Shown: positions 179 to 15,701, numbered from the stretch's first letter. The stretch is 64,000 nucleotides of DNA from Candidatus Peribacteria bacterium (GCA_041691135.1 JBEPVF010000008.1:921-64920); one strand, 5' to 3'. The notes: generated from the sequence alone by a model not told the origin. Made by a program: numbers and translations.

Positions 179-1279
179 ATGATTGCAGGCATGGAATCAA
201 TTGGAGAGCTGCTTGCCGCATACCTCAAACGTCATCAATTGAAAGCCAACCAGCTTGCTCTCTTGTCAGGAGTGAAACGTCAGCGGATCCACAGCTATTT
301 GCGCGAAGGCGAGATCCCAAACGAGAAGAATCTAAAGAAGCTTCTCAAGGTCATGACGGAGCTAACCCCCCGAGACATAGAGCAATTTTGGAGGGTGCAA
401 GCCCAGGGCAAAGCCGAAGCCACAGGAAAGAGGCATGACTTTGGCAAATTTCAAAAGGTGAGCGCCGATAAACGGAAACTCAGGGAGATGTATCAGGTGA
501 AGCTATGGTTTGCGGCAGTCAACGGCACAATCGCCGCCGCCCAACCTCTGCATCAGGTGAGTGATCAAGCATCTCCCGCAGGTAACGAGGTGGAACTGCT
601 TAAGGTGCGGGACAATAGTCGGATCCAGCTTCAGAAGAGGTATAAAAAGGCATCGCGGATGCAGAAGGGGGAAAAGTATCTGGAGGGTGATTGTTTCGTT
701 TCTCTCCGTGCGCGACCTGCGCTGGATCTTCCAACGATACACTGGCATCTTTCGGGTTTCATTGATCCAAAGGAACTAGGACATTCGTTCGCTCGAAAGC
801 AAAAGATTGTGTTTGAAGAAAGCTGGAAATCTCATTGGAAATCGCGCCGAGGCAAGGGAATAAGGGTTTCTCTCTTAAACGAGGAAGGAACTGAAGAAAA
901 ATATAGAGAAGTGCTCAAAAAAATTTGTCAAAACAGTGAGGTATCGATGGGAAGCATTTTTGCTTTCATCGCAACAGAGCTCCAATCAGCGCTTCATATG
1001 AAGGAATGGGGAAGAAGAGAGGAATTCACAGTTTCGCTCAATACAATCGAACTGACTGATCTCACAAACGTGCTCGCACGGACACAATCATTTTTTGCAA
1101 CTTCTTCCAAAGAGAAGTCTGCTCAACATGCCGATGAAGCCTCGTATCTTGCGCTGAAGACAAAAATGATGGCTCAAATGCTTACAACAGCAGTGGTTCG
1201 GCAAGATATAGAGCTGGCAATTTTACGGCTGTCTTTGAGTTATTTCTTACAGGCACAAACGATGATTTTTTCTGCGTAA
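179..1279 (+). CDS. XRE-type helix-turn-helix domain protein, otherwise uncharacterised
   Basis: 366-aa ORF. N-terminus LLAAYLKRHQLKANQLALLSGVKRQRIHSYLREG resembles a Cro/XRE HTH; the rest has no motif I recognise. First gene of the + strand string that ends in the DGR. Confidence 0.55.
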   Translation: MIAGMESIGELLAAYLKRHQLKANQLALLSGVKRQRIHSYLREGEIPNEKNLKKLLKVMTELTPRDIEQFWRVQAQGKAEATGKRHDFGKFQKVSADKRKLREMYQVKLWFAAVNGTIAAAQPLHQVSDQASPAGNEVELLKVRDNSRIQLQKRYKKASRMQKGEKYLEGDCFVSLRARPALDLPTIHWHLSGFIDPKELGHSFARKQKIVFEESWKSHWKSRRGKGIRVSLLNEEGTEEKYREVLKKICQNSEVSMGSIFAFIATELQSALHMKEWGRREEFTVSLNTIELTDLTNVLARTQSFFATSSKEKSAQHADEASYLALKTKMMAQMLTTAVVRQDIELAILRLSLSYFLQAQTMIFSA

Positions 1280-1427
1280 TGGAAAAATTTCTAATATTTC
1301 ATATTTTTCCATCGTGACCAGTGGGGCATGGAATAAAACGGCTCTCTTCGCTGTTTCCGTATTACAGAGCTTATTCTCTTTGAATGGCATTCTCAGGTAG
1401 TTTACGGTTCAATTCTCATAAGTTTTA

Positions 1428-1436
1428 TGGTATAAT
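1428..1436 (+). promoter_or_regulatory. candidate extended -10 element (TGgTATAAT)
   Basis: tggtataat in an AT-rich gap 18 bp upstream of the ATG at 1454. No clear -35 seen. Confidence 0.3.
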
Positions 1437-1453
1437 ATTTAGAGACATTGTAA

Positions 1454-4363
1454 ATGCCTATGCCCACTCCTCGATCCGGTCCCGGCGATGATCTAAGAAA
1501 TCAAGATTCTTTAGAGAATCCACTTTCAGATGCTCCTGAAGAGCAGAATAGAGAAGAAGCGGGCTTCATAGAATCTACTCGCGAGACACTTTCCGCTCGC
1601 GCAAAGGAAGCAATCGAATTGCCATCGAACCGAACCGTCCTCGATGTCCCCATTGAATTTTGTAGTGAGGGCAAGAAAATTGAAACACAGAACAGAAAAG
1701 GTACATATGTTGTTCGTGTAAATGCCAGGCGCTTTCGCAGCCGCGAAGATGCAGAGCGTGCCGGTATTCTTCAAGCCGCGTATCTTCGCTCTCTCCGCGA
1801 CCACTTACAGACCGAAACAGGTAAAGCATTTGAGGCGCTGCAATTATTCGGTACTGCTGCCCACAGCGCTCTACGTTTCAAGGGACTCAAGATGATGTCG
1901 GAGTGGGAGAAGGGAGAGACTTCTCCTTTGACAGCTACTTCTGAGACACCTCTCACACTTGCGCAAATCTTTGATCGCAGTCTTGAGCACTATGTTCTTA
2001 CCGGAATATTACCTGAAGCGATTCCGAACGAAGTTCGTCAGGCATTGGAAAAGATTCCAGGTCGCCAAGGGAAGAGCGCCCTCGATTTTATCGCAGAGAA
2101 TAGCCGATCTCTTAGGAGCAGCGCGAAACTGTACGAAGAACACATTGCCCCTCTGCGAGAACATTTAAAGGAAGAAGATGGGGAGAAGCGCATGACTGAG
2201 CGCGATGACTATGTCCCGCCTGACGGGAAAGGAGAGCAGGCACCTCTTGATCCGGAAAGCGTACGATGGAGAGTAGAGCCATTCGTGGGCGGTTACTACC
2301 GTCAGCAACTATTCCGATACGATCCAGCTGCACAAAAAATCGTTGCAGAACCGACAGATAAAACAGAGTTTCGCCTTACGGATGTTCCGGAGAATATAGA
2401 TGAATTGAAGCGTTACACGTTCCGCGGAGTGTTCGTCCCCGGCGAAGAAAACCGTATTCCATTTCCCGAAAAGGGACTGCCGCTTCCTGACACTCTCGAT
2501 CCAAAAGGAACATTTCGGCTCTATAGAAGTTCGGCAGGTATTTTTTCTCTCGAGGAAAAGCAAGAAGGCACTGTCACCGAACCCATGCAGTATTCTTTTG
2601 AGTTCGTTCTTGCCAGAAACAGCGATAACCGAATTGATGATGATCCAACCGAAGCCGATCTCATAACGATTGAGGGTCCACTGGATGCTACTGCGGAAGA
2701 ATTGCTTTCAGGTTTAAAACAAAACACTTTCCTTGGAAAAGCAGATCGCGGACGCACAGTCGTTTTTGCCACTCGCAAGCAGTTTACGTATCCGAAAGAG
2801 GAAGAAATGCCAGCAATGAATGAGCGATACGGGGTAGCTGGATCAAATCTTCACCCCGAAATGGCTGATCTTAAGCTCGCAGACTGCCATTGGAGCAACA
2901 TCCGGGCGTCCGATCTCGGACGGAGGTTGGATGTCCCCATGCGTACTCCAAGTGGCTTTTTCGTTACCCGTCACCCTGATGTAGATTTCGCCCCTGTTGG
3001 CGGTATCGGCCATGCATGGAGTGAGCGATGGGACGAGACATCAGAGCAGTGGATTCGCACAGATGCGACACCACCGAAGCAGAATGAAGACGAAGATGAA
3101 GAAGAGAACGAGGAAGATCAGCCTGCCTCAGCTCCTGCCGCTGCGGGTGAAAGAGAGACGAAGGTGGGTGAAAATGATGCAGAGAATGAAGTGGAGGAAA
3201 GCGGTGTCCTTGAGATGAATGAAGACGAGATTTCAAAACTTTTGGAACTCGTAACGCAGTCCACTCCTTCGGCGCAGGAAGTCGCAGAAGAATTATTCAG
3301 ACAGCGCACAAATGTTTCGGCAGCAGATTGGAAAAAGGTTGAGGGATTTGTGGAGACCGTGAATGCAACTCAGGTCGCACCTGAGGCGCAGATTCCTGAA
3401 ACACCGGAACTACTTCGCAACTTCCGTGAACGCATCACAGCTCCGAAAGGAACACTCGAGCGAGAATGGCAAAAACTCTTCTGCCTTATCTGCACCCACC
3501 GCGAGGTACGTCGTCGCAAATTCCCCGGCAATGTCCGTCAGAGTGAGAGCACAACGGGACTAGATAACCCGGTTGATGCGTACATTGATATTATGGCTGA
3601 CGAAAGCGATCCGATGGGATTTGGAATCGATACGCGGAGACCAGAAACTATTCTTGATGTGAAAGCCTTCGAGGAAGATGCGCTCGTCGACCTTACGTCT
3701 TCTATGGACGATACAGACAGCAAAGGAAACGTGATGCGCATTGAGCAGAAGAAAATGATTCTGTCGCTTTTGTCTCACCTCATGGAATTGAACGAAGAAC
3801 TGAATGATTCCCGCGTTCGTTCCACACTCCGTACACCACTCAAAATCCGCTCGGAGATTTATTCCATTCATGGACAAGGAAAGAAAAACCAAGGGCAGTT
3901 CGCTCGCCTCAAGGCCGCAGATGAAGACATTACGGAAGCCGCTCTCGTTCATCTTGCGCGAGAACTTGATCAGACCACACCCGGCGCGGGAGACTTCTTG
4001 AGCGCACTTCAGGCTTACAGAAACGGCATCTCCCCTGAGACTCTGCAAAAAATTCGCTCGGGGGATATTGTGAAACTGCTTACAATCTATTCCGATGGCA
4101 ATCACTGGTGCAGTAACTGCGGCTCCGAATCGTGCAACGTCCAGATCCATGCGGATCGCGTTCGCGCGGCGCAGGAGGAAATCGCTAAAATTCGAGAGCT
4201 TGGGATCATTGTGCAGGGCATCGGATTCACGAAAAAAGCTGAAGCGATCAAGATCATGTGCCATGATCCTAATGAGCCGGGCGGAGCCATTGTGGTTAAT
4301 GATGTCTCCCGAGCCGTATCAGCCAGGCATGCGATGCTAACGAAGCATTTACGAAACCTATAA
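1454..4363 (+). CDS. transglutaminase-like Cys-protease domain / poly-acidic linker / C-terminal vWA domain protein
   Basis: 969 aa. Cys-His-Asp core pattern ADCHWSN ... GHAWSERW ... IRTDATP, then an acidic run NEDEDEEENEED. C-terminal MIDAS-like DLTSSMD plus LLTIYSDGN is typical of vWA. No signal peptide seen. Confidence 0.7.
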   Translation: MPMPTPRSGPGDDLRNQDSLENPLSDAPEEQNREEAGFIESTRETLSARAKEAIELPSNRTVLDVPIEFCSEGKKIETQNRKGTYVVRVNARRFRSREDAERAGILQAAYLRSLRDHLQTETGKAFEALQLFGTAAHSALRFKGLKMMSEWEKGETSPLTATSETPLTLAQIFDRSLEHYVLTGILPEAIPNEVRQALEKIPGRQGKSALDFIAENSRSLRSSAKLYEEHIAPLREHLKEEDGEKRMTERDDYVPPDGKGEQAPLDPESVRWRVEPFVGGYYRQQLFRYDPAAQKIVAEPTDKTEFRLTDVPENIDELKRYTFRGVFVPGEENRIPFPEKGLPLPDTLDPKGTFRLYRSSAGIFSLEEKQEGTVTEPMQYSFEFVLARNSDNRIDDDPTEADLITIEGPLDATAEELLSGLKQNTFLGKADRGRTVVFATRKQFTYPKEEEMPAMNERYGVAGSNLHPEMADLKLADCHWSNIRASDLGRRLDVPMRTPSGFFVTRHPDVDFAPVGGIGHAWSERWDETSEQWIRTDATPPKQNEDEDEEENEEDQPASAPAAAGERETKVGENDAENEVEESGVLEMNEDEISKLLELVTQSTPSAQEVAEELFRQRTNVSAADWKKVEGFVETVNATQVAPEAQIPETPELLRNFRERITAPKGTLEREWQKLFCLICTHREVRRRKFPGNVRQSESTTGLDNPVDAYIDIMADESDPMGFGIDTRRPETILDVKAFEEDALVDLTSSMDDTDSKGNVMRIEQKKMILSLLSHLMELNEELNDSRVRSTLRTPLKIRSEIYSIHGQGKKNQGQFARLKAADEDITEAALVHLARELDQTTPGAGDFLSALQAYRNGISPETLQKIRSGDIVKLLTIYSDGNHWCSNCGSESCNVQIHADRVRAAQEEIAKIRELGIIVQGIGFTKKAEAIKIMCHDPNEPGGAIVVNDVSRAVSARHAMLTKHLRNL

Positions 4364-4368
4364 AATAA

Positions 4369-4376
4369 TGTATAAT
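4369..4376 (+). promoter_or_regulatory. candidate -10 element (TGTATAAT)
   Basis: tgtataat in the 29-bp AT-rich gap before the ATG at 4393. Confidence 0.3.
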
Positions 4377-4392
4377 ATTAAGAAATCCCTCT

Positions 4393-7206
4393 ATGCCTAC
4401 CAAGAAGCTCACAGGCGCACCCCTCGATCCTCCTGAAAGAGAGGATTCTCCTCCAGAAGGTGGAGAAAAGGCCACATCCCGCAAGATCAATGTTGTTCGA
4501 GAAGCAATGCGTCTTGGACTAGATCTGTCTGCTTTGCGTTTGGATCAGTTCGCTCCGCAAGATGGCGGGCATGTTGGCACGAATGGAGTACCGCTAGGTA
4601 CCGAAGACGTGAGACGCAAGGCGTTAGAAACACTCCATCTGCTCGATGAATACAACCGCGTGAAACTCGCACCGAGCAAGGCTTCTCTGGGGAAGCAGGA
4701 TGATTTATTTGAGGGAATTGAAAGTCTTGATGATTTCATTTCAGCTCTCGATACCAGCAAAGATAAAGGTGGTGAAAAGAAAACAGAGCCGACGCAAAAA
4801 TTCAGACGGGAGGAATTAGCGGATCGCATCAGCGAACTTCTTTCAGAGCCACAAGTGTATCAACTCCTGCGTCAGTCATTAACAAAGGAAACCGAGCGCT
4901 TTGTCGCCGTCCAACCGCTCTTGTCGCGGTTGCACAAGCTGCGCCAAGTGCAGGACATTGCTTTCGAGCGCATTCACACGCTCTCACTCGAGAGTAAACG
5001 TACTCACGGCAAGATCGTGGGATCAGTACAGACGGCCATTGAAAAGCTTTCGCGTCTTAGTAAGGAAGCAGATGAAGAGGAGAACCGCTTGGAAGAGGAG
5101 GCAAGTCCCTTGGAAAAGGGATGGATCGCCTCGCAGCGACTTCTTGAATATAAGCAGCAGATGAAGAAAGACCGTTTCGTCATGACTCCGAGTCGTCGTG
5201 CAATCCTCGATGAGATGATTGCGAAACTCGGAAGCAAAGGCCGAGTACTTCTGCTTGGTTCCAACGGCACAGGAAAGACGGAGCTAGCGGCAAAAGCCCT
5301 CAAGCTCACATCGAACGGCTATCACCTTGTTCCGTGGCAGGAAGCGACAACCGGACAGGATATTTTCGGACGCCAAGAGATTCGCCGTCAGAATGGTCAT
5401 GTAGAAAGCGGCCTTCGCCCCGGTCCGATGACTCGCGCCATCGAAGCGAAGGGTGACGAGCCAGCGGGTGTCCTGCATGATGAATTGAACCTCGGAAGCC
5501 TTCGCACTATTTATCTCTTGAAGAAGCTCTGGAACAGCCGTCCGGGGCAGGAAGTGGATGTGCCTGTGCTCGATGAGAAGCGAATGCTGCCACTTAACTA
5601 TGCCGAGGTGTATACGGCAAACCCGAAGGATGAGCGTACGAGCAATCGCGAGGAATTCGATGCGGGTATCACTCGTGTCCTCGGTGGTATGAATGTTCCG
5701 TTCCTTGCTCAAAACGAGCAGGAGCAGATTATTCTTGCAAAGCTCATTGATGAGAATGGCGTATTACATCTCTCGAAGAGCGAAGCACAAACTATCCGCG
5801 AACTTGTTGCTGCAGCAGTCATGACACAACAGTGCTTTGATCGTGCGTTTGCAGATCTAGGTGATGAGGCACTTGGTGAGATCAAAAAAATGACGGGTAT
5901 TTCTGATCTGAGACTGACGAAGAAATTCCTCGATCCAGGTCGTCTGATGGAAATGTTTGATACCTATGAGCAGAAGCGGGCAGAAGGAATGAGTGTGGCG
6001 GATTATCTTTCTGGAGAATTGAAGAAATTCCTTGCTGAATTTGAAGTGGAGGAAGAGCGAAATATCGCAATTGCCATTCTTAAATTGAAAGGTGTTATTG
6101 CTGCCGATAGCACAGCTACAGAACCGCATGTTCAGGTTCTAAAGAAGCCGGGTGAGAAGCCGTATCTACTTCCTTCCGAGCTTGCATTCGTTGTCTCTTG
6201 TGATGATGAATTGGATGATTCGGATATTGAATTCGATCAACCAGAGATCAGTATAGAAGATGTCCTTGCGACCGATGGTGCCGAACTTTTGGAATTTCTC
6301 AATAAAGGATCACCTGATGGGATTCGAGCGAAGACCCGTAGAGGTGTTGCCGAAGCACTCGGTACGTCACAGAAAACAATTGATCGTGCTCGCCAGATCA
6401 TGCTTGAAAAATGCGGAGAGGGTCACTTCTATGGCCCAAGTGAACTGGAGAAGACCTTCCCCGGAATGAAAATTGATCTGAAGGACGTTCCTACGCTGCC
6501 TTCCGAGAGCGAGATTCAGCGTCATGCTGCTCTTGGTCAAGCATTGCGCCTTCGCATCAGCAAAGCTCCGGATGGATCGAAATTAACGATGCAGAAAATG
6601 CATCAACTTCTTCAGGATGAGTTCACCAAGAGCAAAGATGGCAAAGTGCTCTATAGCGCCGAAGATGAATGGAAGTTGAAATCGACATTCTTTACGGAAG
6701 AAGTGCCGGAGCTTGCTTGGGGATTCACTTCTGATGAAGTGCTGCCGAATTCTACGGGCAAAAACCACCTGCAGCAGACACAATTGATCGCCGAATACGC
6801 TAAAAGCACACTCTTTAAGAGTGAGCAAATGCCGCAGGAATACCGCGAAGCAATGGCGGAATTAACCGCTCAGCAGAATGAAATTCAGCAGCTCATGAGC
6901 AGCGATTGGAAAGCTGCCGCAGACAGATTGGCGAATCTGAAAATCAATAAGCTCATGCGCGCCACTCCCGTCGAAACTCTCTGTGATCTTCTCGTCACGT
7001 TCCGCAACAGTGATCCGAAGAAGCGCAAACGCTTACTTGAGAAGAAACTGACATGGACAGCTACTCAAAGCTCGGACGGTTTCCTCGTCTTCGTCGGCCG
7101 CTTCGCTCCGGACGGCGTGTACGTCAACGACTGGTCTCCGGACTACTCGCATGACGATCTCGGGGTTGTCCTCGCTCGGAAGTTCCCTAGAGCCTTGCGC
7201 ACTTGA
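4393..7206 (+). CDS. AAA+ ATPase (MoxR/AAA_5-like) fused to a C-terminal DGR-diversified domain (DGR target 1)
   Basis: 937 aa. Walker A LLGSNGTGKT, Walker B GVLHDELN. The last ~260 aa are paralogous to ORF 7288-8310 and end in VR-1, which matches TR except at TR adenines. Confidence 0.85.
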   Translation: MPTKKLTGAPLDPPEREDSPPEGGEKATSRKINVVREAMRLGLDLSALRLDQFAPQDGGHVGTNGVPLGTEDVRRKALETLHLLDEYNRVKLAPSKASLGKQDDLFEGIESLDDFISALDTSKDKGGEKKTEPTQKFRREELADRISELLSEPQVYQLLRQSLTKETERFVAVQPLLSRLHKLRQVQDIAFERIHTLSLESKRTHGKIVGSVQTAIEKLSRLSKEADEEENRLEEEASPLEKGWIASQRLLEYKQQMKKDRFVMTPSRRAILDEMIAKLGSKGRVLLLGSNGTGKTELAAKALKLTSNGYHLVPWQEATTGQDIFGRQEIRRQNGHVESGLRPGPMTRAIEAKGDEPAGVLHDELNLGSLRTIYLLKKLWNSRPGQEVDVPVLDEKRMLPLNYAEVYTANPKDERTSNREEFDAGITRVLGGMNVPFLAQNEQEQIILAKLIDENGVLHLSKSEAQTIRELVAAAVMTQQCFDRAFADLGDEALGEIKKMTGISDLRLTKKFLDPGRLMEMFDTYEQKRAEGMSVADYLSGELKKFLAEFEVEEERNIAIAILKLKGVIAADSTATEPHVQVLKKPGEKPYLLPSELAFVVSCDDELDDSDIEFDQPEISIEDVLATDGAELLEFLNKGSPDGIRAKTRRGVAEALGTSQKTIDRARQIMLEKCGEGHFYGPSELEKTFPGMKIDLKDVPTLPSESEIQRHAALGQALRLRISKAPDGSKLTMQKMHQLLQDEFTKSKDGKVLYSAEDEWKLKSTFFTEEVPELAWGFTSDEVLPNSTGKNHLQQTQLIAEYAKSTLFKSEQMPQEYREAMAELTAQQNEIQQLMSSDWKAAADRLANLKINKLMRATPVETLCDLLVTFRNSDPKKRKRLLEKKLTWTATQSSDGFLVFVGRFAPDGVYVNDWSPDYSHDDLGVVLARKFPRALRT
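7069..7186 (+). repeat. DGR variable repeat VR-1
   Basis: 118-nt gap-free match to TR 8726-8843. By hand alignment, 14 mismatches, all at TR adenines, plus one non-A difference near the 3' edge (TR aaC vs VR aaG). Confidence 0.9.
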
Positions 7207-7262
7207 ATGCTTGAACTTCCTCGATTCCTTTTTCCTTGAAGCATCCGCTACTGACGAATTTT
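7187..7262 (+). repeat. conserved post-VR element, copy 1
   Basis: ~75 bp directly after VR-1. About three-quarters identical by eye to the stretch after VR-2. Contains cttga(a) repeats and the shared block ccttgaagcatccgctac (7234-7251). Confidence 0.5.
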
Positions 7263-7287
7263 CACCTCCTGTTGTCTCTCACTCTCA

Positions 7288-8310
7288 ATGCCACGCGAAG
7301 TACTCCATACGTTCATCCGGCAACTCAAAGAAAGTACTGCCTACAAAGATCATGTGGGCGTTCGCACTGTTGTCGATGAGACAGTTCAAAGAATTGCCGC
7401 TCTGTCGGAAGAAGACGGCGGTCCACAGCTCCGAGAGGAAATACAGAGCTTACATGAACGTATTGTCCCTCTCCTGCATGGAACAAATGCGCCGAAGGGA
7501 AAGGAGAGAAAGGGAAATTCGATCAATCCCAAGGAGGCAGAAACCATCATGGGCAGAGACCATTTCTTCGGCGCAGAGGCCGTTGCCAAGGCTTTCCCGG
7601 GCATCCCACTCAAACCGGAGCAGATTCCAGCTATACCGTTCTCCAAAGAAGACCTACAACGAGCCAAGGAACTTGGAGACAGTCTCCGTCTGCGGGTGAG
7701 TAAAGCGCCGGGTAACGGCAACTTGAGCATGGAGAAGATGCAGGAACTGTTGCAGCCAACCTTCGACCAAAAGAACGAAGGAAAGGTTTTGTATGATACC
7801 GACTGGTACGAGGGTGAGGACTTCTTCAAGGAAGCCCCTGAACTCTGCTGGGTGCTTACATCGGATGGAATCATTCCGGATTCCGAAGACAAAGATTATC
7901 TCCAGCAGACGGAACATATTGCCGAGTACCTTCGTGAGACGGTTTATAAGGGCAAAAAACTTCCGCAGCAATACAGCGATGCAATCAAGGAAATGGAAAC
8001 TCAGAAAGATGAGATCCGTCGCCTTATCGATGCTAATGACTGGCAGAAAGCAGCTGAAAAACTTGCGAATCTTACACTCAACAAACTCACGCGCCGCGTC
8101 CCTGTTGAAGTGCTCTATGACATGCTTGTGACATTCCAGAATGGTGATAAGCGCCATCTGGAAGATTTCTATGATTGGACAGGTGTCCGCAGCTCGGTCG
8201 GTCGCCTCGTCCACGTCGGCCCCTTCGATCCGGACGGCGTGGGCGTCGACGACTGGTCTCCGAGCGGCTCGGATGACGCTCTCGGGGTTGTCCTCGCTCG
8301 GAAGTTCTGA
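7288..8310 (+). CDS. DGR target protein 2 (stand-alone paralog of the C-terminal module of the AAA+ protein)
   Basis: 340 aa. Residues from DHFFGAEAV onward align with GHFYGPSEL... of ORF 4393-7206. Ends ...DWSPSGSDDALGVVLARKF, encoded by VR-2. Confidence 0.85.
   Translation: MPREVLHTFIRQLKESTAYKDHVGVRTVVDETVQRIAALSEEDGGPQLREEIQSLHERIVPLLHGTNAPKGKERKGNSINPKEAETIMGRDHFFGAEAVAKAFPGIPLKPEQIPAIPFSKEDLQRAKELGDSLRLRVSKAPGNGNLSMEKMQELLQPTFDQKNEGKVLYDTDWYEGEDFFKEAPELCWVLTSDGIIPDSEDKDYLQQTEHIAEYLRETVYKGKKLPQQYSDAIKEMETQKDEIRRLIDANDWQKAAEKLANLTLNKLTRRVPVEVLYDMLVTFQNGDKRHLEDFYDWTGVRSSVGRLVHVGPFDPDGVGVDDWSPSGSDDALGVVLARKF
8191..8307 (+). repeat. DGR variable repeat VR-2
   Basis: Gap-free match to TR. 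By hand alignment, 17 mismatches inside the block, all at TR adenines. Same aaG vs TR aaC boundary difference as VR-1. Confidence 0.9.
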
Positions 8311-8380
8311 GCCTTGAGGTCTTGAAAGCTTGATCCTCCTTGAATCCTTTACTCTTGAAGCATCCGCTACAGGCGATTTT
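8308..8380 (+). repeat. conserved post-VR element, copy 2
   Basis: gccttgaggtcttgaaagcttgatcctccttgaatcctttactcttgaagcatccgctac... is homologous to 7187-7262. Confidence 0.5.
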
Positions 8381-8725
8381 GTCGGATTTTGCACTGGATG
8401 CTGGCTTCATTTGCATCATAGGATGCATTTGCGGCCCGTTCTTGCAGTCAGGGTTACGGCTCTGGCTCACGGTACGCCTCATCTCTGCTACCACTGAAGC
8501 GGTCAGCGTAGGTGGAAACTCACCAGAATACCGTGCCTCTACGGAGCACAGTAGCGAGTGGGCTTAGATGTGAAGGAACTTCTTGCTCATTCTCAGACTC
8601 GGTATCGTTTCCCAAGATGATTGCGGGCGAATCAAATTCAGGGGAAAGAGGATATAGCCCAGTGTTTTTTGTTTGGCTGGGGGTAAACCTCGATCTCCGG
8701 TGTCTCGGACGGGAGTGAGCAACAC

Positions 8726-8843
8726 AGCTCGGACGGTAACCTCGTCAACGTCGGCAACTTCGATCCGGACGGCGTGAACGTCAACAACTGGAATCCGAAC
8801 AACTCGAATGACGATCTCGGGGTTGTCCTCGCTCGGAACTTCC
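8726..8843 (+). repeat. DGR template repeat (TR)
   Basis: Non-coding. In the VR frame it reads SSDGNLVNVGNFDPDGVNVNNWNPNNSNDDLGVVLARNF, with 10 AAY codons. The only differences from both VRs inside the block are at its adenines. It may extend 5' to ~8721. Confidence 0.9.
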
Positions 8844-8858
8844 TTCTCGGTAATCCAG

Positions 8859-8881
8859 GGGACTCTCGCCTTCAGAGTCCC
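8859..8881. other. 8-bp stem-loop just 3' of TR and 3' of avd
   Basis: gggactct-cgccttc-agagtccc lies between the TR end (8843) and the avd stop codon (8887-8889). Confidence 0.35.
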
Positions 8882-8886
8882 TTGGG

Positions 8887-9237
8887 TTATCCCTCGCGTG
8901 TCGATTTGATCCATCCGCCGAGCATGCGTCCAATCTCATCAATCATTTCCTGAATGAGAGCGTACTTCTTCAGGTCGATGGCCTTTACGTCCTTGGCGAG
9001 ACGAAGGAAGACACGGAGAACATTGAGCTTAAGGCTGACGCGCTCAAGCGGTTCCAGTTTCTGTGCTTTGCGTACTTGGCTGGCAAGAATGATGCCTTCC
9101 AATACCTCCAGCACGAGATTCTCGCAGCGAGGCCAGAGCGCAGTGCGATCTTGTTTGGAAATAGATGCCCGAAACTCATAGAGCTTCTTGGTTAGTTCGT
9201 AGGCCTTCTTGAAAATTGGGATATCTAATTCTTCCAT
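8887..9237 (-). CDS. avd: DGR accessory variability determinant (Avd, four-helix-bundle family)
   Basis: 116 aa from the internal ATG at 9237: MEELDIPIFKKAYELTKKLYEF...IDEIGRMLGGWIKSTREG. Size and pattern are typical of Avd / 23S-IVS four-helix-bundle proteins. Opposite strand to TR and RT. Confidence 0.8.
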   Translation of the reverse strand: MEELDIPIFKKAYELTKKLYEFRASISKQDRTALWPRCENLVLEVLEGIILASQVRKAQKLEPLERVSLKLNVLRVFLRLAKDVKAIDLKKYALIQEMIDEIGRMLGGWIKSTREG

Positions 9238-9250
9238 AACGACATAAAGC

Positions 9251-10300
9251 ATGAAAGTACACAAGCATATCTTCGAGCGGATCATTACGCCAGAGAACTT
9301 ATTCCAAGCTTGGGAGGAGTTCCGCAGAGGCAAGGGATCTCGAAAAGACGTACAGGCGTTCGAGTGGCAGCTTGAACAGAACATCCTGTCTCTTTGTCGG
9401 GATCTGCGTAGCCGGACGTACAGACATGGGGAATATTCGGCTTTTTCGATCTGTGATCCGAAGCAGCGCCGGATACATAAAGCGGCTGTACGTGATCGCA
9501 TACTTCATCACGCAATTTTTAAGGTGTTGAATCCCATCTTCGAGCCGACGTTTATTGCACATTCCTATTCCTGTCGTGAGGGGAAAGGAACACACAAGGC
9601 AGTTGATACATTGGAAACGTGGCTGCGAAAAGTCAGCCAAAATTGTAGGGTGCCGTGTTTTGCTCTCAAGTGTGACATCCAACAATTCTTCGCCTCAGTC
9701 GATCATGCAATCCTGCTCTCGATCCTTGATCGGAAGATCAAAGACCCTGATGCGATGTGGCTGCTGAAGGAGGTAGTGGAGAGTTTCTCCACGCCTGTGC
9801 AAGAAAATGAACGTCCCAAAGGTATTCCTATCGGCAATCTCACTTCGCAGTTATTTGCGAACGTGTACTTGAACGAGTTCGATCAATTCATGAAGCAAAA
9901 ACTACGCATCCGTCACTACGTTCGGTACACAGATGATTTTGTGATCGTGAGTTCAGACAAGTCTGCATTGGAGAATCTGATTCCAGTCATGCAGGAATTT
10001 CTCAGTGAAACTATGTTTCTCAAACTGCATCCTCGAAAAATCATCCTTCGCAAATTCGGTCAGGGCATCGACTTCCTCGGATATGTCATCCTGCCTCACT
10101 ATCGTGTACTTCGGACTCGGACAAAACAGCGAATGTTTCGGAAACTCAAGCTCCGAGTGGTTAGCTTTAAGACTGGTAAGGGTAGCGAGTCGTCTGTTGA
10201 GTGTTCACTCCAGTCCTATCTTGGCGTTCTATCGCATGCGAATACTGAACAGCTCACTGAGGAGTTGAAAAACCAATGCTGGTTTTGGATGTGCGAATAG
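9251..10300 (+). CDS. DGR-type reverse transcriptase
   Basis: 349 aa. IPIGNLTSQLFANVYLNEFD is the DGR-specific [I/L]GxxxSQ motif; catalytic YVRYTDDFVIV. Adjacent to TR and Avd. Confidence 0.9.
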   Translation: MKVHKHIFERIITPENLFQAWEEFRRGKGSRKDVQAFEWQLEQNILSLCRDLRSRTYRHGEYSAFSICDPKQRRIHKAAVRDRILHHAIFKVLNPIFEPTFIAHSYSCREGKGTHKAVDTLETWLRKVSQNCRVPCFALKCDIQQFFASVDHAILLSILDRKIKDPDAMWLLKEVVESFSTPVQENERPKGIPIGNLTSQLFANVYLNEFDQFMKQKLRIRHYVRYTDDFVIVSSDKSALENLIPVMQEFLSETMFLKLHPRKIILRKFGQGIDFLGYVILPHYRVLRTRTKQRMFRKLKLRVVSFKTGKGSESSVECSLQSYLGVLSHANTEQLTEELKNQCWFWMCE

Positions 10301-10404: not shown

Positions 10405-11859
10405 ATGCTCACAAAATCCGACTATCTCCGGTACCTCGAATGTCCCATCCATCTTTGGATACACAAGCATCGATCCCATGAGGTCGGTCATCATATTGAT
10501 CCTCAACTTCAGTGGATCTTCGAGCAGGGGGACAGAGTGGAAGCATACGCACGTAGCCTCTTTCCCGATGCCGAGATAGTCAGCGGCCACTCGCAAAAAT
10601 CTGAGGAGCAGACTAAGGCATTAATTGAGTCAGGGGTTACAGACATATTCCAAGCGACGGCGATTGCGGATGGATTGCTCGCTATGGCTGACGTTTTCCA
10701 GCTCGATCCTGAAACGCAGGAATGGAATTTGTATGAAGTGAAAAGTACGAGTGAACTCCAAGATGGGCATCTACATGATGTGTGTTTTCAGATGATTGCC
10801 TTTAAGAAAGCGGGATACACCATGGGCAAGCTTCATCTCATCCACATCAATCCCAATTACGTAAGACGCGGAGAGATAGATGCACGTTCCTTGTTGGTCA
10901 TTGAAGACATCACGGAACAGGTCTATTCCTTGGAAGCGGAGGTGCTTGTCCAGATTGCTGCTGCGAAACAGGTTGAAGCATCAGCTGACATGCCATCGTG
11001 TGACGGCTGTACGTGCTCACCCAAGGACTGCTTTTGCCATCACTATTGCTACCCCGATCTTCCGGATTACTCTGTCTTTCAACTCAGTCGTATCAAGGTA
11101 AAACAGGCCCGTGATCTCTATCGCAAAGGAATTCGTAATCTTCTCGAGATTCCTCCGGACTTCAAGCTCACAGCAGCGCAAGCACTACAGTTGCAAGTCG
11201 TCCGCACTGGAAAACCCGTCATCGATACGAGGAGCATCAGCACTATCCTGAATACGACGAAATACCCCCTCGCTTTTCTCGACTACGAAACGTTCTTTCC
11301 GGCTGTGCCACTCTTTGACGGATACAAGCCCTATCAACAGATGGTTTTTCAGTACTCGCTTCACGTCTTGTTGGAAGATGGAACGCTACAGCATTCTGAA
11401 TGTCTTGTGCGAACTCTTGTCGATCCTGTGTCAGAGATCCTTCGTACTCTACGGTCCCAGCTTCCTGAAAATGGAACGGTTGTGGTGTGGAACAAGGGGT
11501 TTGAGATGGGGAGGAACGAAGAAATGGCCGCGCTCTTGCCCGATCAGGCGGTTTTCCTTCGTTCGCTCAATAGCAGGGTCTTCGATCTCATGGAAATCTT
11601 CAGCAAACACCACTATGTACACCCCGATTTCCGGGGAAGTTACTCGATTAAAAAAGTCTTACCCGTTCTAGTGCCATCTCTGTCTTATAAGGATCTGGAA
11701 ATTCAAGAAGGCGGAACAGCCTCACTGACGTGGTATCGGATGCTTACCGATGGACGCAGTGAGGTCGAGAAGCTGAAGACGCGTGAGGCCATGCTCGCAT
11801 ATTGTAAACTTGATACGTTGGCGATGGTCGAAGTTTTTCGATGTTTGAAGGCTTTGTAG
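10405..11859 (+). CDS. DUF2779-like protein (predicted PD-(D/E)xK / Cas4-like nuclease with Cys cluster)
   Basis: 484 aa. N-terminus MLTKSDYLRYLECPIHLWI, LYEVKSTS motif, Cys cluster CDGCTCSPKDCFCHHYC. Family assignment is from memory of DUF2779 signatures. Confidence 0.55.
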   Translation: MLTKSDYLRYLECPIHLWIHKHRSHEVGHHIDPQLQWIFEQGDRVEAYARSLFPDAEIVSGHSQKSEEQTKALIESGVTDIFQATAIADGLLAMADVFQLDPETQEWNLYEVKSTSELQDGHLHDVCFQMIAFKKAGYTMGKLHLIHINPNYVRRGEIDARSLLVIEDITEQVYSLEAEVLVQIAAAKQVEASADMPSCDGCTCSPKDCFCHHYCYPDLPDYSVFQLSRIKVKQARDLYRKGIRNLLEIPPDFKLTAAQALQLQVVRTGKPVIDTRSISTILNTTKYPLAFLDYETFFPAVPLFDGYKPYQQMVFQYSLHVLLEDGTLQHSECLVRTLVDPVSEILRTLRSQLPENGTVVVWNKGFEMGRNEEMAALLPDQAVFLRSLNSRVFDLMEIFSKHHYVHPDFRGSYSIKKVLPVLVPSLSYKDLEIQEGGTASLTWYRMLTDGRSEVEKLKTREAMLAYCKLDTLAMVEVFRCLKAL

Positions 11860-11889: not shown

Positions 11890-12440
11890 TTCCACCGCAA
11901 AACCCCCTCCGTCAGGAGGGGGGATGAAGTCGGTCCGGCGTCTTCCCGTCCCGTGGAATGGTAGGATTTCCCTATGCAGCAGATCTTCAGGAAGCAATCC
12001 AACTGCGTCTATCACTGCACCTATCATCTCATCCTCTGTACAAAGTACCGTCGGAAAATCTTCAATGACGGCGTCTTTGCGTATATGAAAGCCACCCTCA
12101 AAGAACTTCCCGCCCATTACCCTGAGATCGAGATCCTCGAGATCAATCACGATCAGGACCACATCCATCTCCTTCTCTGGATTCCGCCTAAAATGGCCAT
12201 CGGAAAGGTAGTTTCTATCCTTAAATCCAACACCGCCCGCCATCTCAAGAAGAAGTTCCCTTTTCTCAAAGAGGTCTACTGGGGAACGGAAGGCATCTGG
12301 TCAGACAGCTACTTCGTCTCCACCGTGGGCATCAATGAAGACGTCATCCGGAGGTACATCGAACACCAGGGGAGGGAGGACGCCGGACAGCATCAGCTGA
12401 AACTCGTGTAAGCCACCACCGTCAGGTGGTGGTAGTTCAC
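11890..12440 (+). mobile_element. IS200/IS605-family insertion sequence (tnpA only)
   Basis: tnpA is flanked by two 8-bp-stem hairpins with the same GTCA loop: ccccctcc-gtca-ggaggggg (11903-11922) and ccaccacc-gtca-ggtggtgg (12413-12432). Exact ends not determined. Confidence 0.7.
11974..12411 (+). CDS. tnpA: IS200/IS605 family Y1 (HUH) transposase TnpA
   Basis: 145 aa. YHLILCTKYRRKIF, HUH motif DHIHLLL, catalytic-Tyr region SDSYFVSTVG. Confidence 0.85.
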   Translation: MQQIFRKQSNCVYHCTYHLILCTKYRRKIFNDGVFAYMKATLKELPAHYPEIEILEINHDQDHIHLLLWIPPKMAIGKVVSILKSNTARHLKKKFPFLKEVYWGTEGIWSDSYFVSTVGINEDVIRRYIEHQGREDAGQHQLKLV

Positions 12441-13167: not shown

Positions 13168-13173
13168 AGTGTT

Positions 13174-14115: not shown

Positions 14116-14117
14116 GG

Positions 14118-15658: not shown

Positions 15659-15693
15659 TAACGTCTTGCAAACCTGTATGGGCGCGGCTACAG
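15635..15693. promoter_or_regulatory. two operator-like palindromes in the CBASS / LexA-like divergent region
   Basis: TACAG-aaatc-CTGTA (15635-15649) and CTGTA-N10-TACAG (15674-15693). Both use the same 5-mer half-sites. Confidence 0.35.
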
Positions 15694-15701
15694 TAAGCCC
15701 A

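What the first reader, a model, noticed from the sequence alone, without database searches (positions are those of the whole stretch)
179..8310. DGR-diversified domain fused to a MoxR-like AAA+ ATPase, operonic with a transglutaminase-vWA protein: candidate intracellular hypervariable sensor system
DGR target 1 is not a tail fibre, lipoprotein or other obviously surface protein; I see no signal peptide or TM segment. It is a 937-aa protein with a coiled-coil-like N-terminus, an AAA+ core (GSNGTGKT, VLHDELN), an HTH-like stretch (GVAEALGTSQKTIDRARQIM), and then the ~260-aa module that ends in VR-1. Only 29 bp upstream ends a 969-aa protein that combines three parts: a transglutaminase-type Cys/His/Asp core (DCHWSN, GHAWSERW, RTDATP), a poly-acidic linker, and a C-terminal vWA domain (DLTSSMD ... 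IYSDGN). An XRE-type HTH protein gene (179-1279) heads the same-strand string. MoxR-type AAA+ ATPases are classically partnered with vWA proteins, and comparative-genomics work has linked DGR-diversified lectin-fold domains to NTPase-based conflict systems. I am not aware of an experimentally described system in which the hypervariable domain is welded to the MoxR-like ATPase and paired with a transglutaminase-vWA protein. My inference is a three-part device: a retroelement-diversified ligand sensor, an ATPase switch, and a vWA/transglutaminase output (protease or cross-linker). That would suggest an immune or conflict-type function rather than adhesion.
Basis: partly seen in the sequence, partly recalled or inferred. 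Interest (0 to 1): 0.9.

Follow-up and report, generated by a model that had tools for sequence, protein, structure and literature searches.

The report
Retroelement-diversified ATPase with protease-like partner
In ultra-small (CPR) bacteria, a mutagenic retroelement rewrites the tip of a soluble ATP-driven motor protein that is always encoded next to a protease-like, metal-site partner, so this looks like a programmable intracellular recognition machine rather than a surface adhesin.

Summary
Window 1454-10300 holds a complete DGR: TR 8711-8842, inverted bAvd, RT, and two VRs with adenine-specific mismatches. VR1 ends a 937-aa soluble protein whose core is a midasin/NorQ/CbbQ-type (MoxR-clade, Pfam AAA_5) AAA+ ATPase.

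The 969-aa gene 29 nt upstream has no significant Pfam hit itself. Structure search confirms its vWA domain. Remote homologues pass Pfam's Transglut_core and VWA_2 cut-offs. The Cys-His-Asp triad and the MIDAS aspartates are invariant down to 20% identity.

The pairing is not fortuitous. In every related locus with enough DNA (18 distinct CPR/Patescibacteria loci besides the window, 30-92% identity), the TGase-vWA gene is followed at once by the AAA gene. In all but one locus checked (L024), the 3' end of that gene is repeated elsewhere in the locus. In 8 related loci the repeat shows adenine-specific TR mismatches. bAvd and RT usually follow. No other neighbour is conserved.

Not supported: the XRE-HTH gene (not conserved) and the internal "HTH" (a variable linker). 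The C-type-lectin fold of the VR module is unverified.

AAA-bearing CPR DGR targets were already catalogued (Wu 2018), and DGR-linked MoxR-vWA conflict systems are known (Kaur 2020, Doré 2024). This is a new architectural variant. Function (immune or conflict sensing) is inferred.

The parts
1454..4363 (+). ORF2, 969 aa: N-terminal helical/beta region, TGase-like Cys-His-Asp core, D/E-rich linker, helical region, C-terminal vWA (MIDAS) domain
   Evidence: ORF. Full-length family found. The gene is conserved directly upstream of the AAA-VR gene in all informative loci.
2771..3088 (+). Transglutaminase-like (papain-fold thiol peptidase/transglutaminase) core, about aa 440-545, with C478, H520 and D537
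   Evidence: The window segment alone gives Transglut_core E 0.0078, 16.9 bits, below the cut-off of 23. Homologues pass the cut-off: P0073 49.3 bits, P0144 48.7, P0067 44.3. The triad is invariant in 22 sequences down to 20% identity. The AF2 model is unreliable here, with pLDDT below 50.
3074..3253 (+). Poly-acidic (D/E-rich) low-complexity linker
   Evidence: Read directly from the translation. It is variable in length but present across the family.
3656..4360 (+). vWA domain with MIDAS-type residues D746-x-T748-x-S750 and D881
   Evidence: Foldseek against PDB gives ANTXR1/2 vWA at E about 2e-7, TM-target 0.65-0.76, and NorD VWA (9qh8_G) at 1.2e-6. pLDDT is 70-90. Homologues hit VWA_2 and VWA. 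D746, S750, D881 and G882 are invariant.
4393..7206 (+). ORF3, 937 aa: disordered N-terminus, long helices (coiled-coil-like), MoxR-clade AAA+ module, conserved helical region, variable linker, C-terminal DGR-diversified module
5185..5952 (+). AAA+ ATPase module, about aa 265-520: Walker A GSNGTGKT, Walker B HDE, sensor-1 TANP, candidate Arg finger R428
   Evidence: Pfam AAA_5 1.1e-10. The A8 profile matches midasin at 3e-19, NorQ at 1.2e-5 and CbbQ. Foldseek gives NorQ 4e-6, CbbQ2, CHU_0153 and McrB, and viral MoxR-like/CobS proteins. G292-T296, E364, N410, R419 and R428 are invariant in 13 diverse members.
6415..7203 (+). C-terminal target module, aa 675-937, paralogous to ORF4 aa 89-340; a CPR-specific DGR target scaffold
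   Evidence: 49% identity to ORF4, E 2e-78. 77 protein clusters carry the module, all CPR where named, and none has a Pfam domain. There is no Pfam or PDB match.
7054..7185 (+). VR1 (variable repeat) at the 3' end of ORF3
   Evidence: Orthologues 92-93% identical overall differ at 9-13 of 44 VR residues, at TR AAC/AAT codons.
7190..7261 (+). Conserved 72-nt element directly after VR1; it is repeated after VR2 and absent after TR. Candidate target-recognition element.
   Evidence: Repeat family D2, 81% identity. No significant hairpin is present.
7288..8310 (+). ORF4, 340 aa: stand-alone second DGR target, an 85-aa N-terminal region plus the same VR module
   Evidence: It is present in 7 of the 15 loci in the all-against-all comparison, including the window.
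8176..8307 (+). VR2
   Evidence: 18 of 19 core mismatches fall on TR adenines.
8309..8380 (+). Second copy of the 72-nt post-VR element
8711..8842 (+). TR (template repeat): 29 adenines in the 120-nt core, 18 mutable codons (11 of them AAC/AAT), about 1e17 possible peptides
8851..8889 (.). 16-bp stem-loop immediately 3' of TR, overlapping the end of avd
   Evidence: DNA fold -14.4 kcal/mol, z = -2.0.
8887..9264 (-). bAvd accessory protein gene, inverted relative to TR and RT (the 'B3' architecture typical of CPR DGRs)
   Evidence: Pfam bAvd 3.6e-17 and NCBIfam DivGenRetAVD 4.4e-24. The architecture is described in PMC5758913.
9251..10300 (+). DGR reverse transcriptase, 349 aa, with IGNLTSQ and YTDD motifs
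   Evidence: RVT_1 4.6e-22 and PADLOC RT 1.7e-56. It is conserved next to the cassette in 12 of the 15 loci in the all-against-all comparison, including the window.

Best explanation
This is a self-contained cassette of four to five genes that recurs in CPR/Patescibacteria. A DGR (RT, inverted Avd, TR) diversifies the C-terminal ligand-binding module of a soluble midasin/MoxR-type AAA+ ATPase, and usually also a stand-alone copy of that module. The ATPase gene is always preceded by a gene for a protein that joins a catalytically intact transglutaminase-fold Cys-His-Asp domain to a vWA/MIDAS domain through an acidic linker.

Shown:
- the domain identities;
- intact ATPase, triad and MIDAS residues;
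- adenine-directed VR variation, including between near-identical orthologues;
- strict synteny across lineages;
- absence of secretion or membrane signals.

Inferred mechanism, by analogy with NorQ-NorD, CbbQ-CbbO and midasin's own D/E-rich-plus-MIDAS tail:
1. The AAA+ protein forms a hexamer that displays six hypervariable heads.
2. The partner's MIDAS face docks on the ring or on a captured protein.
3. Ligand capture by a VR head is coupled through ATP hydrolysis to remodelling of the ligand or of the partner.
4. The TGase-like domain then cleaves or cross-links it.

The likeliest biological role is intracellular recognition of fast-evolving foreign proteins (phage, or host-cell factors met by these episymbionts). 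That would make it a conflict or immune device built from the same parts as the DGR-linked MoxR-vWA ternary systems, but wired differently.
For: - DGR anatomy and A-specific mismatches.
- AAA class. Invariant Walker A/B, sensor-1 and Arg residues in 13 proteins down to 23% identity.
- vWA fold.
- TGase.
- Synteny: TGvWA is followed by AAA at a gap of a few tens of nt or less (4-39 nt in the ORF table) in every informative locus, namely L001, L003, L007, L011-L014, L016-L018, L021, L022, L024-L027, L029, L030. A Magasanikbacteria variant has the order TGase, short target, AAA_5, RT.
- The 3' end of the AAA gene is a VR with an A-biased TR in L007 (15/17), L013 (18/19), L021 (13/14), L022 (21/22), L025 (13/13), L026 (17/21), L029 (20/23) and L030 (17/20).
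- Only these gene families are conserved around the locus.
- A metagenomic ORF fuses a DGR-type RT (44% identical to the window RT) in frame to a TGase-vWA homologue, a Rosetta-stone-type link.
- VR divergence is 20-30%, against about 6% elsewhere, between orthologues 92-93% identical overall.
- No TM or signal segment.
- Defence-gene neighbours: type III CBASS in the window; MTase plus ResIII and an E1/E2/JAB-patatin gene in L001.
- Precedent for DGR-diversified MoxR-vWA conflict systems: PMC7159879 and PMC10907252.
Against: - No experiment or co-fold supports a physical AAA-vWA interaction here.
- Both AF2 models are mediocre (mean pLDDT 60 and 53). The TGase core and the VR tip are below 50, so catalytic geometry and the lectin fold are unverified.
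- No PADLOC model hits ORF2, ORF3 or ORF4.
- Many characterised MoxR-vWA pairs are maturation chaperones, not immune systems.
- Genomic context is not consistently defence-like: L007 and L032 sit among housekeeping genes.
- The simple hydrophobicity test cannot exclude non-classical export.
- Some loci have a truncated RT (L003/L004), RT and Avd were not detected near the TR in L029, and no detectable TR was found in L024.
Confidence: 0.6

Rival explanations
1. This is a dedicated MoxR-vWA maturation or quality-control chaperone rather than an immune device. The hypervariable heads let a single AAA+ remodeller engage a changing set of endogenous or host-derived client proteins, for example for scavenging or processing proteins taken up from the host cell. 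The TGase-like domain would act as a processing protease.
For: The closest structural and sequence relatives (NorQ/NorD, CbbQ, midasin) are assembly or maturation factors. Some loci lie among housekeeping genes. The proteins are cytoplasmic. CPR bacteria depend on host-derived molecules (general knowledge; PMC11665869 is listed but was not read in detail).
Against: Housekeeping chaperones have fixed clients, so continual DGR hypermutation of the binding head is hard to reconcile with a fixed substrate. The cassette has variable flanks and a patchy distribution: 20 loci among GTDB species representatives. Whole VR modules are swapped between clades. These are typical of conflict genes.
Confidence: 0.2
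2. This is a surface or exported adhesion system, as classically proposed for DGR targets. The AAA-VR and short VR proteins would be exported by an unrecognised route and mediate attachment of the episymbiont to host cells. The TGase-vWA protein would act as an extracellular adhesin or cross-linker.
For: Most characterised DGR targets bind surface ligands (PMC8144416). vWA and transglutaminase domains are frequent in extracellular adhesins; the Foldseek top hits are extracellular vWA domains. CPR bacteria are episymbionts.
Against: ORF2, ORF3 and ORF4 have no signal peptide, TM segment or lipobox-like N-terminus. An ATP-dependent AAA+ motor with intact Walker and sensor residues has no energy source outside the cell. 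Roux et al. themselves note that CPR targets lack membrane features.
Confidence: 0.1
3. The TGase-vWA plus AAA pair serves the retroelement itself, for instance by remodelling or processing RT, Avd, cDNA or target-site complexes. The VR on the ATPase would then be incidental cargo.
For: One metagenomic ORF fuses a DGR-type RT directly to a TGase-vWA homologue. The pair and the DGR travel together with no other conserved gene.
Against: The great majority of DGRs, including other CPR DGRs and stand-alone copies of this same VR module, work without these proteins; L031 has the module with none of them nearby (PMC5758913). The VR is always placed on the AAA protein, and its module type is exchanged while the AAA and TGase-vWA parts stay constant. 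This points to the VR as the functional input. The RT fusion rests on a single 3.7-kb contig.
Confidence: 0.07
4. The adjacency is fortuitous or a prophage or assembly artefact, with no functional link between ORF2 and ORF3.
For: None found beyond the lack of annotation.
Against: The same gene order and short spacing occur in every informative locus, from independent assemblies and several CPR classes at 30-92% identity, with unrelated flanks. No phage structural genes are conserved nearby.
Confidence: 0.02

Closest known systems
DGR-associated vWA-MoxR-VMAP 'ternary' conflict systems of cyanobacteria and gammaproteobacteria (Kaur et al. 2020, PMC7159879; Doré et al. 2024, PMC10907252)
   Same: It uses the same kit of parts: a MoxR-clade AAA+ ATPase, a vWA/MIDAS protein, a peptidase-type effector (TGase-like thiol peptidases are listed as rare VMAP effectors) and a DGR-diversified C-terminal binding domain. 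The proteins are predicted to be cytoplasmic. A short CLec-only second target often accompanies a long one.
   Different: Here the variable domain is fused to the ATPase, not to the vWA protein. The peptidase-like domain is fused to the vWA protein, not to a separate VMAP protein. There is no third conserved component. The AAA is midasin-like with a long coiled-coil N-terminus. The hosts are ultra-small CPR bacteria, not multicellular bacteria; CPR were left out of the statistical test for association with multicellularity, and no CPR systems are mentioned in the passages searched.
CPR DGR target classes 'UVR4' / category g1 (Midasin or P-loop NTPase motif upstream of an unclassified VR) and the B3 cassette architecture (Wu et al. 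2018, PMC5758913)
   Same: These are CPR DGRs whose target carries a midasin-type AAA/P-loop motif and a VR that cannot be assigned to a known fold. The avd gene is inverted between TR and RT. A Rifle-groundwater Peribacteria relative (L014, MFXP01000016) comes from the kind of dataset that paper compiled.
   Different: That survey only recorded the motif. It did not report the conserved TGase-vWA partner, the MoxR-vWA logic, the module swapping or the lineage-wide synteny. I could not confirm that this exact family equals UVR4, because the supplementary files are not held.
NorQ-NorD and CbbQ-CbbO MoxR-vWA remodelling pairs
   Same: These are the best structural matches for both partners: NorQ and CbbQ for the AAA module, and NorD's VWA among the vWA hits. 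They are two-gene AAA plus vWA units in which the MIDAS domain engages the hexamer and its client.
   Different: They have fixed metabolic clients (nitric-oxide reductase, Rubisco), no hypervariable domain, no TGase domain and no retroelement.
Midasin (Rea1/Mdn1)
   Same: This is the best sequence-profile match of the AAA module, at 3e-19. From general knowledge, midasin combines AAA_5 modules, a D/E-rich stretch and a C-terminal MIDAS domain that docks on its own ring. The CPR pair looks like that arrangement split over two proteins, with the D/E-rich linker and MIDAS domain in ORF2.
   Different: Midasin is a eukaryotic giant with six tandem AAA modules in one chain. It acts on pre-60S ribosomes and has no variable domain or TGase domain.
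MoxR-DUF58-transglutaminase (Bat/aerotolerance-type) operons (recalled from general knowledge, not tested here)
   Same: A MoxR ATPase co-occurs with vWA-like and transglutaminase-like proteins in one operon.
   Different: Those TGase proteins are membrane-anchored, the ATPase is the AAA_3 type, and there is no DGR or variable domain.

Membership tests
Diversity-generating retroelement (DGR) | TR/VR repeat pair whose differences fall on TR adenines | tested here: met
   14/16 (VR1) and 18/19 (VR2) core mismatches fall on TR adenines. The same bias is seen in 8 related loci.
Diversity-generating retroelement (DGR) | DGR-type reverse transcriptase next to the TR | tested here: met
   RVT_1 4.6e-22 and PADLOC RT 1.7e-56. 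The IGNLTSQ and YTDD motifs are read from the translation; their DGR specificity is from general knowledge.
Diversity-generating retroelement (DGR) | Avd-type accessory protein | tested here: met
   Pfam bAvd 63.2 bits (cut-off 40) and NCBIfam DivGenRetAVD 84.8 bits (cut-off 80).
Diversity-generating retroelement (DGR) | VR lies in a C-type-lectin (or Ig) fold at the C-terminus of the target | tested here: inconclusive
   The VR is C-terminal (met). The fold is not established: there is no Pfam, NCBIfam or PDB-sequence hit and the AF2 VR tip is below pLDDT 50. hhalign to a sister module with an RxPTxxE...YEW...GFR motif gives only 55% probability.
Diversity-generating retroelement (DGR) | IMH and hairpin/cruciform downstream of VR | tested here: inconclusive
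   A conserved 72-nt element follows both VRs but has no significant hairpin.
MoxR-clade AAA+ ATPases (Pfam AAA_5; midasin/NorQ/CbbQ type) | AAA_5 profile match above the curated threshold | tested here: met
   42.1 bits against a cut-off of 22. Homologues also carry PF07728.
MoxR-clade AAA+ ATPases (Pfam AAA_5; midasin/NorQ/CbbQ type) | Intact Walker A, Walker B, sensor-1 and Arg finger | tested here: met
   GTGKT, E364 (D363-E364), N410 and R428 are invariant in 13 diverse members. Assignment of the sensor and finger roles is by motif analogy.
MoxR-clade AAA+ ATPases (Pfam AAA_5; midasin/NorQ/CbbQ type) | Closest solved relatives are MoxR-clade members | tested here: met
   Midasin 3e-19, NorQ 1.2e-5 and CbbQ by profile. 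NorQ, CbbQ2 and CHU_0153 rank ahead of McrB by Foldseek, on a low-confidence model.
MoxR-clade AAA+ ATPases (Pfam AAA_5; midasin/NorQ/CbbQ type) | Helix-2 insert and pre-sensor-1 hairpin; hexamer formation | not tested
MoxR-clade AAA+ ATPases (Pfam AAA_5; midasin/NorQ/CbbQ type) | Genomic coupling with a vWA-domain partner | tested here: met
   The vWA protein is encoded 29 nt upstream, and the pair is conserved in all informative loci.
vWA / MIDAS domain | Rossmann-like vWA fold | tested here: met
   Foldseek probability 1.00, E about 2e-7, TM-target up to 0.76, on a region with pLDDT 70-90.
vWA / MIDAS domain | Metal-site residues: DxSxS after strand 1 and Asp after strand 4 | tested here: met
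   D746-L-T748-S-S750 and S880-D881-G882. D746, S750 and D881 are invariant to 20% identity. The first Ser is Thr here.
vWA / MIDAS domain | Pfam VWA-family hit in the window protein itself | tested here: not met
   No hit even at E<=10. Only homologue P0073 passes: VWA_2 29.1 bits against a cut-off of 27.
Transglutaminase-like thiol peptidase/transglutaminase superfamily (PF01841) | Cys-His-Asp catalytic triad in the canonical order | tested here: met
   C478 (DCHWSN), H520 (GHAWSE) and D537 (DATP) are invariant in 22 sequences.
Transglutaminase-like thiol peptidase/transglutaminase superfamily (PF01841) | Profile match above the curated threshold | tested here: inconclusive
   The window protein scores 16.9 bits, below 23. 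Seven of nine family members scanned pass, at 26-49 bits. Homology of those members to ORF2 was found by the profile search.
Transglutaminase-like thiol peptidase/transglutaminase superfamily (PF01841) | Papain-like fold with correct triad geometry | tested here: inconclusive
   The AF2 model is below pLDDT 50 over residues 420-588.
vWA-MoxR-VMAP ternary conflict system (Kaur et al. 2020) | Third component: a VMAP protein carrying the effector or adaptor | tested here: not met
   No third conserved gene family lies around the pair in the 15 loci compared. The VMAP alignment itself was not available to search with.
vWA-MoxR-VMAP ternary conflict system (Kaur et al. 2020) | [quoted passage not shown] | tested here: not met
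   The VR module is fused to the AAA+ protein. The vWA protein carries the TGase-like domain instead.
   The ORF1 HTH_3 hit is below the cut-off. No ORF1 homologue is found in any related locus. Upstream genes differ between loci.

The most novel reading that the evidence does not exclude
CPR bacteria carry an intracellular, somatically diversifying receptor. It would be a hexameric AAA+ motor whose six retroelement-rewritten heads (about 1e17 possible sequences) capture unforeseen foreign proteins and feed them, through a MIDAS-docked partner, to a thiol peptidase/transglutaminase. That would be an antibody-like, ATP-driven 'recognise-and-process' immune machine in some of the smallest known cells. 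It would show that DGR-programmed NTPase immunity is not tied to multicellularity.
Probability: 0.3. Interest if true: 0.85.

Novelty: new variant of a known kind. Interest (0 to 1): 0.66.

Why it matters
What the abundant DGRs of CPR/Patescibacteria diversify has been an open question. Surveys note that their targets lack membrane anchors or recognisable domains (PMC8144416, PMC5758913).

This locus, and the CPR-wide cassette it represents, gives one class of those targets a concrete biochemical context: a MoxR/midasin-type motor, a MIDAS partner and a thiol-peptidase-like domain, all cytoplasmic.

It extends the DGR-MoxR-vWA theme, so far tied to multicellular bacteria, to ultra-small episymbionts with a rewired, two-protein architecture. 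It also offers a compact set of four to five genes that could be reconstituted in E. coli to test whether a retroelement can programme the substrate choice of an AAA+ machine. If so, that would also be of engineering interest.

Tried and rejected
1. Direct annotation of ORF2 by Pfam, NCBIfam, PADLOC and PDB-sequence profiles gave nothing significant. It was solved only through the exhaustive profile search plus Pfam on remote members.

2. The AF2 models were too weak for the TGase core and the VR tip. Foldseek therefore informed only on the vWA and AAA parts. The BFVD search added no information on the VR module.

3. Tests for a C-type-lectin/FGE fold were all negative or weak:
- Pfam on 9 plus 10 module sequences;
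- NCBIfam;
- PDB profiles of two module types;
- tblastn against phage genomes;
- hhalign between module types, 55% probability.

4. The search for related loci with the most divergent alignment failed because no stretch was conserved enough. A narrower alignment worked.

5. Several remote TGase relatives sit on contigs too short to show neighbours.

6. Paul et al. 2017 (Nat Microbiol) on CPR DGRs could not be read. The supplements of Wu et al. are not held. Identity with their 'UVR4' class is therefore unconfirmed.

7. Rejected: ORF1 as part of the system, the internal HTH, a prophage origin, and chance adjacency.

8. A search for a hairpin after the VRs found none. The promoter and terminator scan was uninformative, apart from showing no + strand terminator between ORF2 and ORF4.

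Full report
**1. What is in the window**

ORF listing confirms four same-strand genes at the stated coordinates:
- ORF1, 179-1279, 366 aa;
- ORF2, 1454-4363, 969 aa;
- ORF3, 4393-7206, 937 aa;
- ORF4, 7288-8310, 340 aa.

The ORF2-ORF3 gap is 29 nt and the ORF3-ORF4 gap is 81 nt.

Repeat search finds a 132-nt family with three copies: the end of ORF3 (7054-7185), the end of ORF4 (8176-8307) and an intergenic copy (8711-8842). In the alignment the intergenic copy is the template. Within the solid 120-nt core, 14 of 16 (VR1) and 18 of 19 (VR2) mismatches lie on its adenines.

Downstream lie a minus-strand bAvd gene (8887-9264; Pfam bAvd 3.6e-17, NCBIfam DivGenRetAVD above cut-off) and a plus-strand RT (9251-10300; RVT_1 4.6e-22; IGNLTSQ and YTDD motifs). 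This TR, inverted-avd, RT order is the 'B3' architecture that Wu et al. report for 90% of CPR DGRs (PMC5758913).

The TR has 18 mutable codons, 11 of them AAC/AAT, giving about 1e17 possible peptides. A 16-bp hairpin follows the TR. A conserved 72-nt element follows both VRs but not the TR and is not a hairpin.

**2. The proteins**

*ORF3.*
- It carries Pfam AAA_5 (1.1e-10, above threshold).
- A profile of 13 diverse family members matches midasin AAA modules (3e-19), NorQ (1.2e-5) and CbbQ in the PDB.
- The AF2 model is poor (mean pLDDT 53). Its AAA part nevertheless retrieves NorQ, CbbQ2 and the MoxR protein CHU_0153 ahead of McrB, and viral 'MoxR-like'/CobS proteins.
- Walker A (GTGKT), Walker B (D-E364), sensor-1 (TANP) and R419/R428 are invariant down to 23% identity.
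- 'MoxR-like' is therefore right in the clade sense, and the nearest sequence relative is midasin.
- Long helices at residues 134-260 fit the 'coiled-coil-like' remark.
- The 'HTH-like stretch' (aa about 651-670) lies in a gapped, poorly conserved linker and is not a conserved feature.

*ORF2.*
- It has no significant hit in Pfam, NCBIfam, PADLOC or PDB sequences.
- Its AF2 model (pLDDT 60) is good over residues 735-969. That region retrieves vWA domains at probability 1.00, including NorD's VWA.
- The TGase region is modelled below pLDDT 50.
- An exhaustive profile search found 203 representative proteins with E<=1e-3, about 20 of them full-length.
- Of nine family members scanned, seven pass Pfam's Transglut_core cut-off (26-49 bits) and one passes VWA_2.
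- The window segment alone gives Transglut_core as its only hit, at a sub-threshold 16.9 bits.
- In a 22-sequence alignment reaching 20% identity, only 17 columns are invariant. They include C478, H520 and D537 (the triad) and D746, S750, D881 and G882 (MIDAS-type).

*ORF4* is a stand-alone paralogue of ORF3's last 257 residues (49% identity, 2e-78).

A hydrophobicity scan finds no TM or signal-like segment in ORF2, ORF3 or ORF4.

**3. Is the pairing conserved?**

Word-based searches found only 16-17 close clusters, named Peribacteria or Peregrinibacteria where named at all. Both proteins were repeatedly on the same contigs.

Neighbourhood look-ups showed TGase-vWA followed by AAA_5 at 59%, 47% and 42% identity, with bAvd/RT nearby.

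A scan of GTDB species representatives returned 20 loci. All but one are labelled CPR/Patescibacteria or simply 'bacterium'. The named lineages are Peribacteria, Peregrinibacteria, Gracilibacteria, Roizmanbacteria and Pacebacteria/Paceibacterota. One MAG is labelled Gammaproteobacteria, which is probably a mislabel.

My HMM-based annotation of all loci gave three results.
- In every locus with downstream DNA, the TGase-vWA gene is followed directly by an 828-937-aa homologue of the ORF3 N-terminal/AAA part. bAvd(-) and RT(+) follow in most loci.
- In all but one of the loci checked (L024), the 3' end of that AAA gene is repeated elsewhere in the locus. In eight related loci the best partner is a TR with 81-100% of mismatches on its adenines. 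In most of the others the best partner is a second VR.
- An all-against-all comparison of flanking ORFs finds only these families conserved: TGase-vWA, AAA-VR with short targets, RT and Avd. The remainder are antisense shadow ORFs.

ORF1 has no homologue in any locus, including the 92%-identical one.

A Magasanikbacteria locus has the order TGase, short target, AAA_5, RT.

One metagenomic ORF (P0086/L033) fuses a DGR-type RT (44% identical to the window RT) in frame to a TGase-vWA homologue. This is an independent hint of functional linkage, but it rests on a single 3.7-kb contig.

**4. The variable module**

Between clades the AAA and TGase-vWA parts stay homologous, but the C-terminal module is replaced. 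At least five BLAST-unrelated types occur.

The window's type has no Pfam, NCBIfam or PDB match. It occurs in 77 clusters, mostly as 300-350-aa stand-alone proteins of many CPR lineages.

The Roizmanbacteria/Paceibacterota type shows an RxPTxxE...YEWxxDEY...GFRVAV pattern. By eye this recalls FGE/CLec DGR targets, yet it also has no database hit. hhalign between the two types gives 55% probability (E 1.2e-4) and aligns the VRs.

The lectin fold is therefore plausible but unproven, which matches Wu et al.'s 'unknown VR' label.

Evidence for DGR activity: orthologues 92-93% identical overall differ at 9-13 of 44 VR residues (20-30%) against about 6% elsewhere. The differences fall at TR AAC/AAT codons.

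**5. Mechanism**

The following are shown: domain identities, intact catalytic and nucleotide-binding residues, A-directed variation, obligatory synteny, and absence of export signals.

The following are inferred from established knowledge of MoxR-vWA pairs (NorQD, CbbQO, RavA-ViaA) and of midasin, whose D/E-rich segment and MIDAS domain dock on its AAA ring:
1. The AAA+ protein forms a hexamer with six variable heads.
2. ORF2's MIDAS domain docks on it.
3. ATP hydrolysis couples ligand capture to the action of the TGase-like domain (cleavage or cross-linking).

ORF2's acidic linker followed by a MIDAS domain makes the pair resemble a 'split midasin'.

A conflict or immune role is favoured for several reasons:
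- continuous diversification of the binding head;
- module swapping between clades;
- patchy distribution with unrelated flanks;
- defence neighbours in two loci, namely type III CBASS at window 12673-15658, and MTase plus ResIII and an E1/E2/JAB-patatin gene in L001;
- the precedent of DGR-diversified MoxR-vWA systems.

Against this, there is no PADLOC hit, other loci lie among housekeeping genes, and there are no experiments.

**6. Comparison with known systems and novelty**

Kaur et al. (PMC7159879) and Doré et al. (PMC10907252) describe ternary MoxR plus vWA plus VMAP systems. In these the DGR-diversified FGS/CLec domain sits on the vWA protein, and peptidases (rarely TGase-like) sit on VMAP. 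CPR were left out of their statistical test for association with multicellularity.

Wu et al. (PMC5758913) had already recorded CPR DGR targets with a 'Midasin'/P-loop NTPase motif (UVR4, category g1). Roux et al. noted that CPR targets lack membrane or recognisable domains and left their nature open.

Full-text searches found no paper linking DGRs with a transglutaminase-vWA partner or describing this two-protein arrangement. Paul et al. 2017 could not be read.

The finding fails two defining features of the VMAP ternary family: there is no third component, and the variable domain is not on the vWA protein. It clearly works with the same parts. I therefore rate it a new variant of a known kind. 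It is confined to, and widespread within, CPR.

**7. Verdict**

- Observation: confirmed.
- Interest: moderately high (0.66). It gives a biochemical handle on an open question, namely what CPR DGRs diversify. It also shows the DGR-NTPase theme outside multicellular bacteria.

Noticed in passing
window 12673-15658 (- strand): A complete type III CBASS-like operon lies 2.4 kb beyond the DGR RT. It comprises CD-NTase (14621-15658; PADLOC Cyclase 4.9e-128), HORMA (14118-14663; 1.5e-60), TRIP13 (13174-14115; 9.3e-118) and a small TM effector (12673-13167; 7.6e-21).
   Followed up: partly
window 11974-12411 (+) and 10405-11859 (+): An IS200-like Y1 transposase (Y1_Tnp 5.7e-35) and a DUF2779 protein with weak Cas4-like PADLOC hits lie between the DGR and the CBASS operon. 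A DUF2779 homologue also lies near the cassette in L014 (5859-7334, -).
   Followed up: partly
window 15561-16319 (+), 16402-16476 (+): A LexA-like repressor (Peptidase_S24 5.2e-21) lies next to a tRNA-Ser(GCT). This could be an integration hotspot bordering the variable region.
   Followed up: no
L033 113-3622 (protein P0086): A single 1169-aa ORF fuses a DGR-type RT (44% identical to the window RT) to a TGase-vWA homologue with its triad and a DLSGSM MIDAS motif. It comes from one 3.7-kb metagenomic contig and could be an assembly or frameshift artefact.
   Followed up: partly
L003, L007, L016/L017, L021-L029, L027, L030 (3' ends of the AAA genes): Orthologous AAA proteins carry at least five C-terminal VR modules that BLAST cannot relate to one another. 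Each locus's short second target matches its own AAA module, so the target module is exchanged as a unit while the AAA and TGase-vWA parts persist.
   Followed up: partly
window 7190-7261 and 8309-8380: A 72-nt sequence is conserved (81%) immediately after both VRs and is absent after the TR. It has no hairpin. It could be the target-recognition (IMH-like) element of this DGR class.
   Followed up: partly
window 8851-8889: A strong 16-bp stem-loop lies directly 3' of the TR and overlaps the stop of the inverted avd gene. It could be a TR-RNA structural element or a bidirectional terminator.
   Followed up: no
Protein P0026 (alignment A3, about aa 310-440): One otherwise close homologue (76% identity overall) has a strongly divergent AAA core segment resembling that of P0033. 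This suggests recombination between cassette copies.
   Followed up: no
L011 and L013 (contigs JAKQEM010000032 and JAKQEM010000042): Two different copies of the whole cassette (82% and 92% identical to the window ORF2) are assigned to the same MAG. This indicates either multiple cassettes per small genome or a mixed bin.
   Followed up: no
L001 6046-9923 and 20914-22913: In the 59%-identity Peribacteria locus, an N6/N4 DNA methylase plus a ResIII helicase lie just upstream of the cassette. A 1120-aa E2/E1/JAB/patatin protein (CBASS-type) lies just downstream.
   Followed up: partly
window 4103-4150 (ORF2 aa 884-899): The vWA domain has a Cys-rich insert (HWCSNCGSESCNVQIH) after strand 4. It is nearly invariant in the close clade and absent in P0015 and the distant members. 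It could be a small metal-binding knuckle.
   Followed up: no
L031 9001-9933: In an Uhrbacteria genome, a stand-alone copy of the window-type VR module sits among translation genes with no RT, Avd, AAA or TGase gene within 9 kb. It is either a remote or orphan target or a fixed, non-diversified derivative.
   Followed up: no
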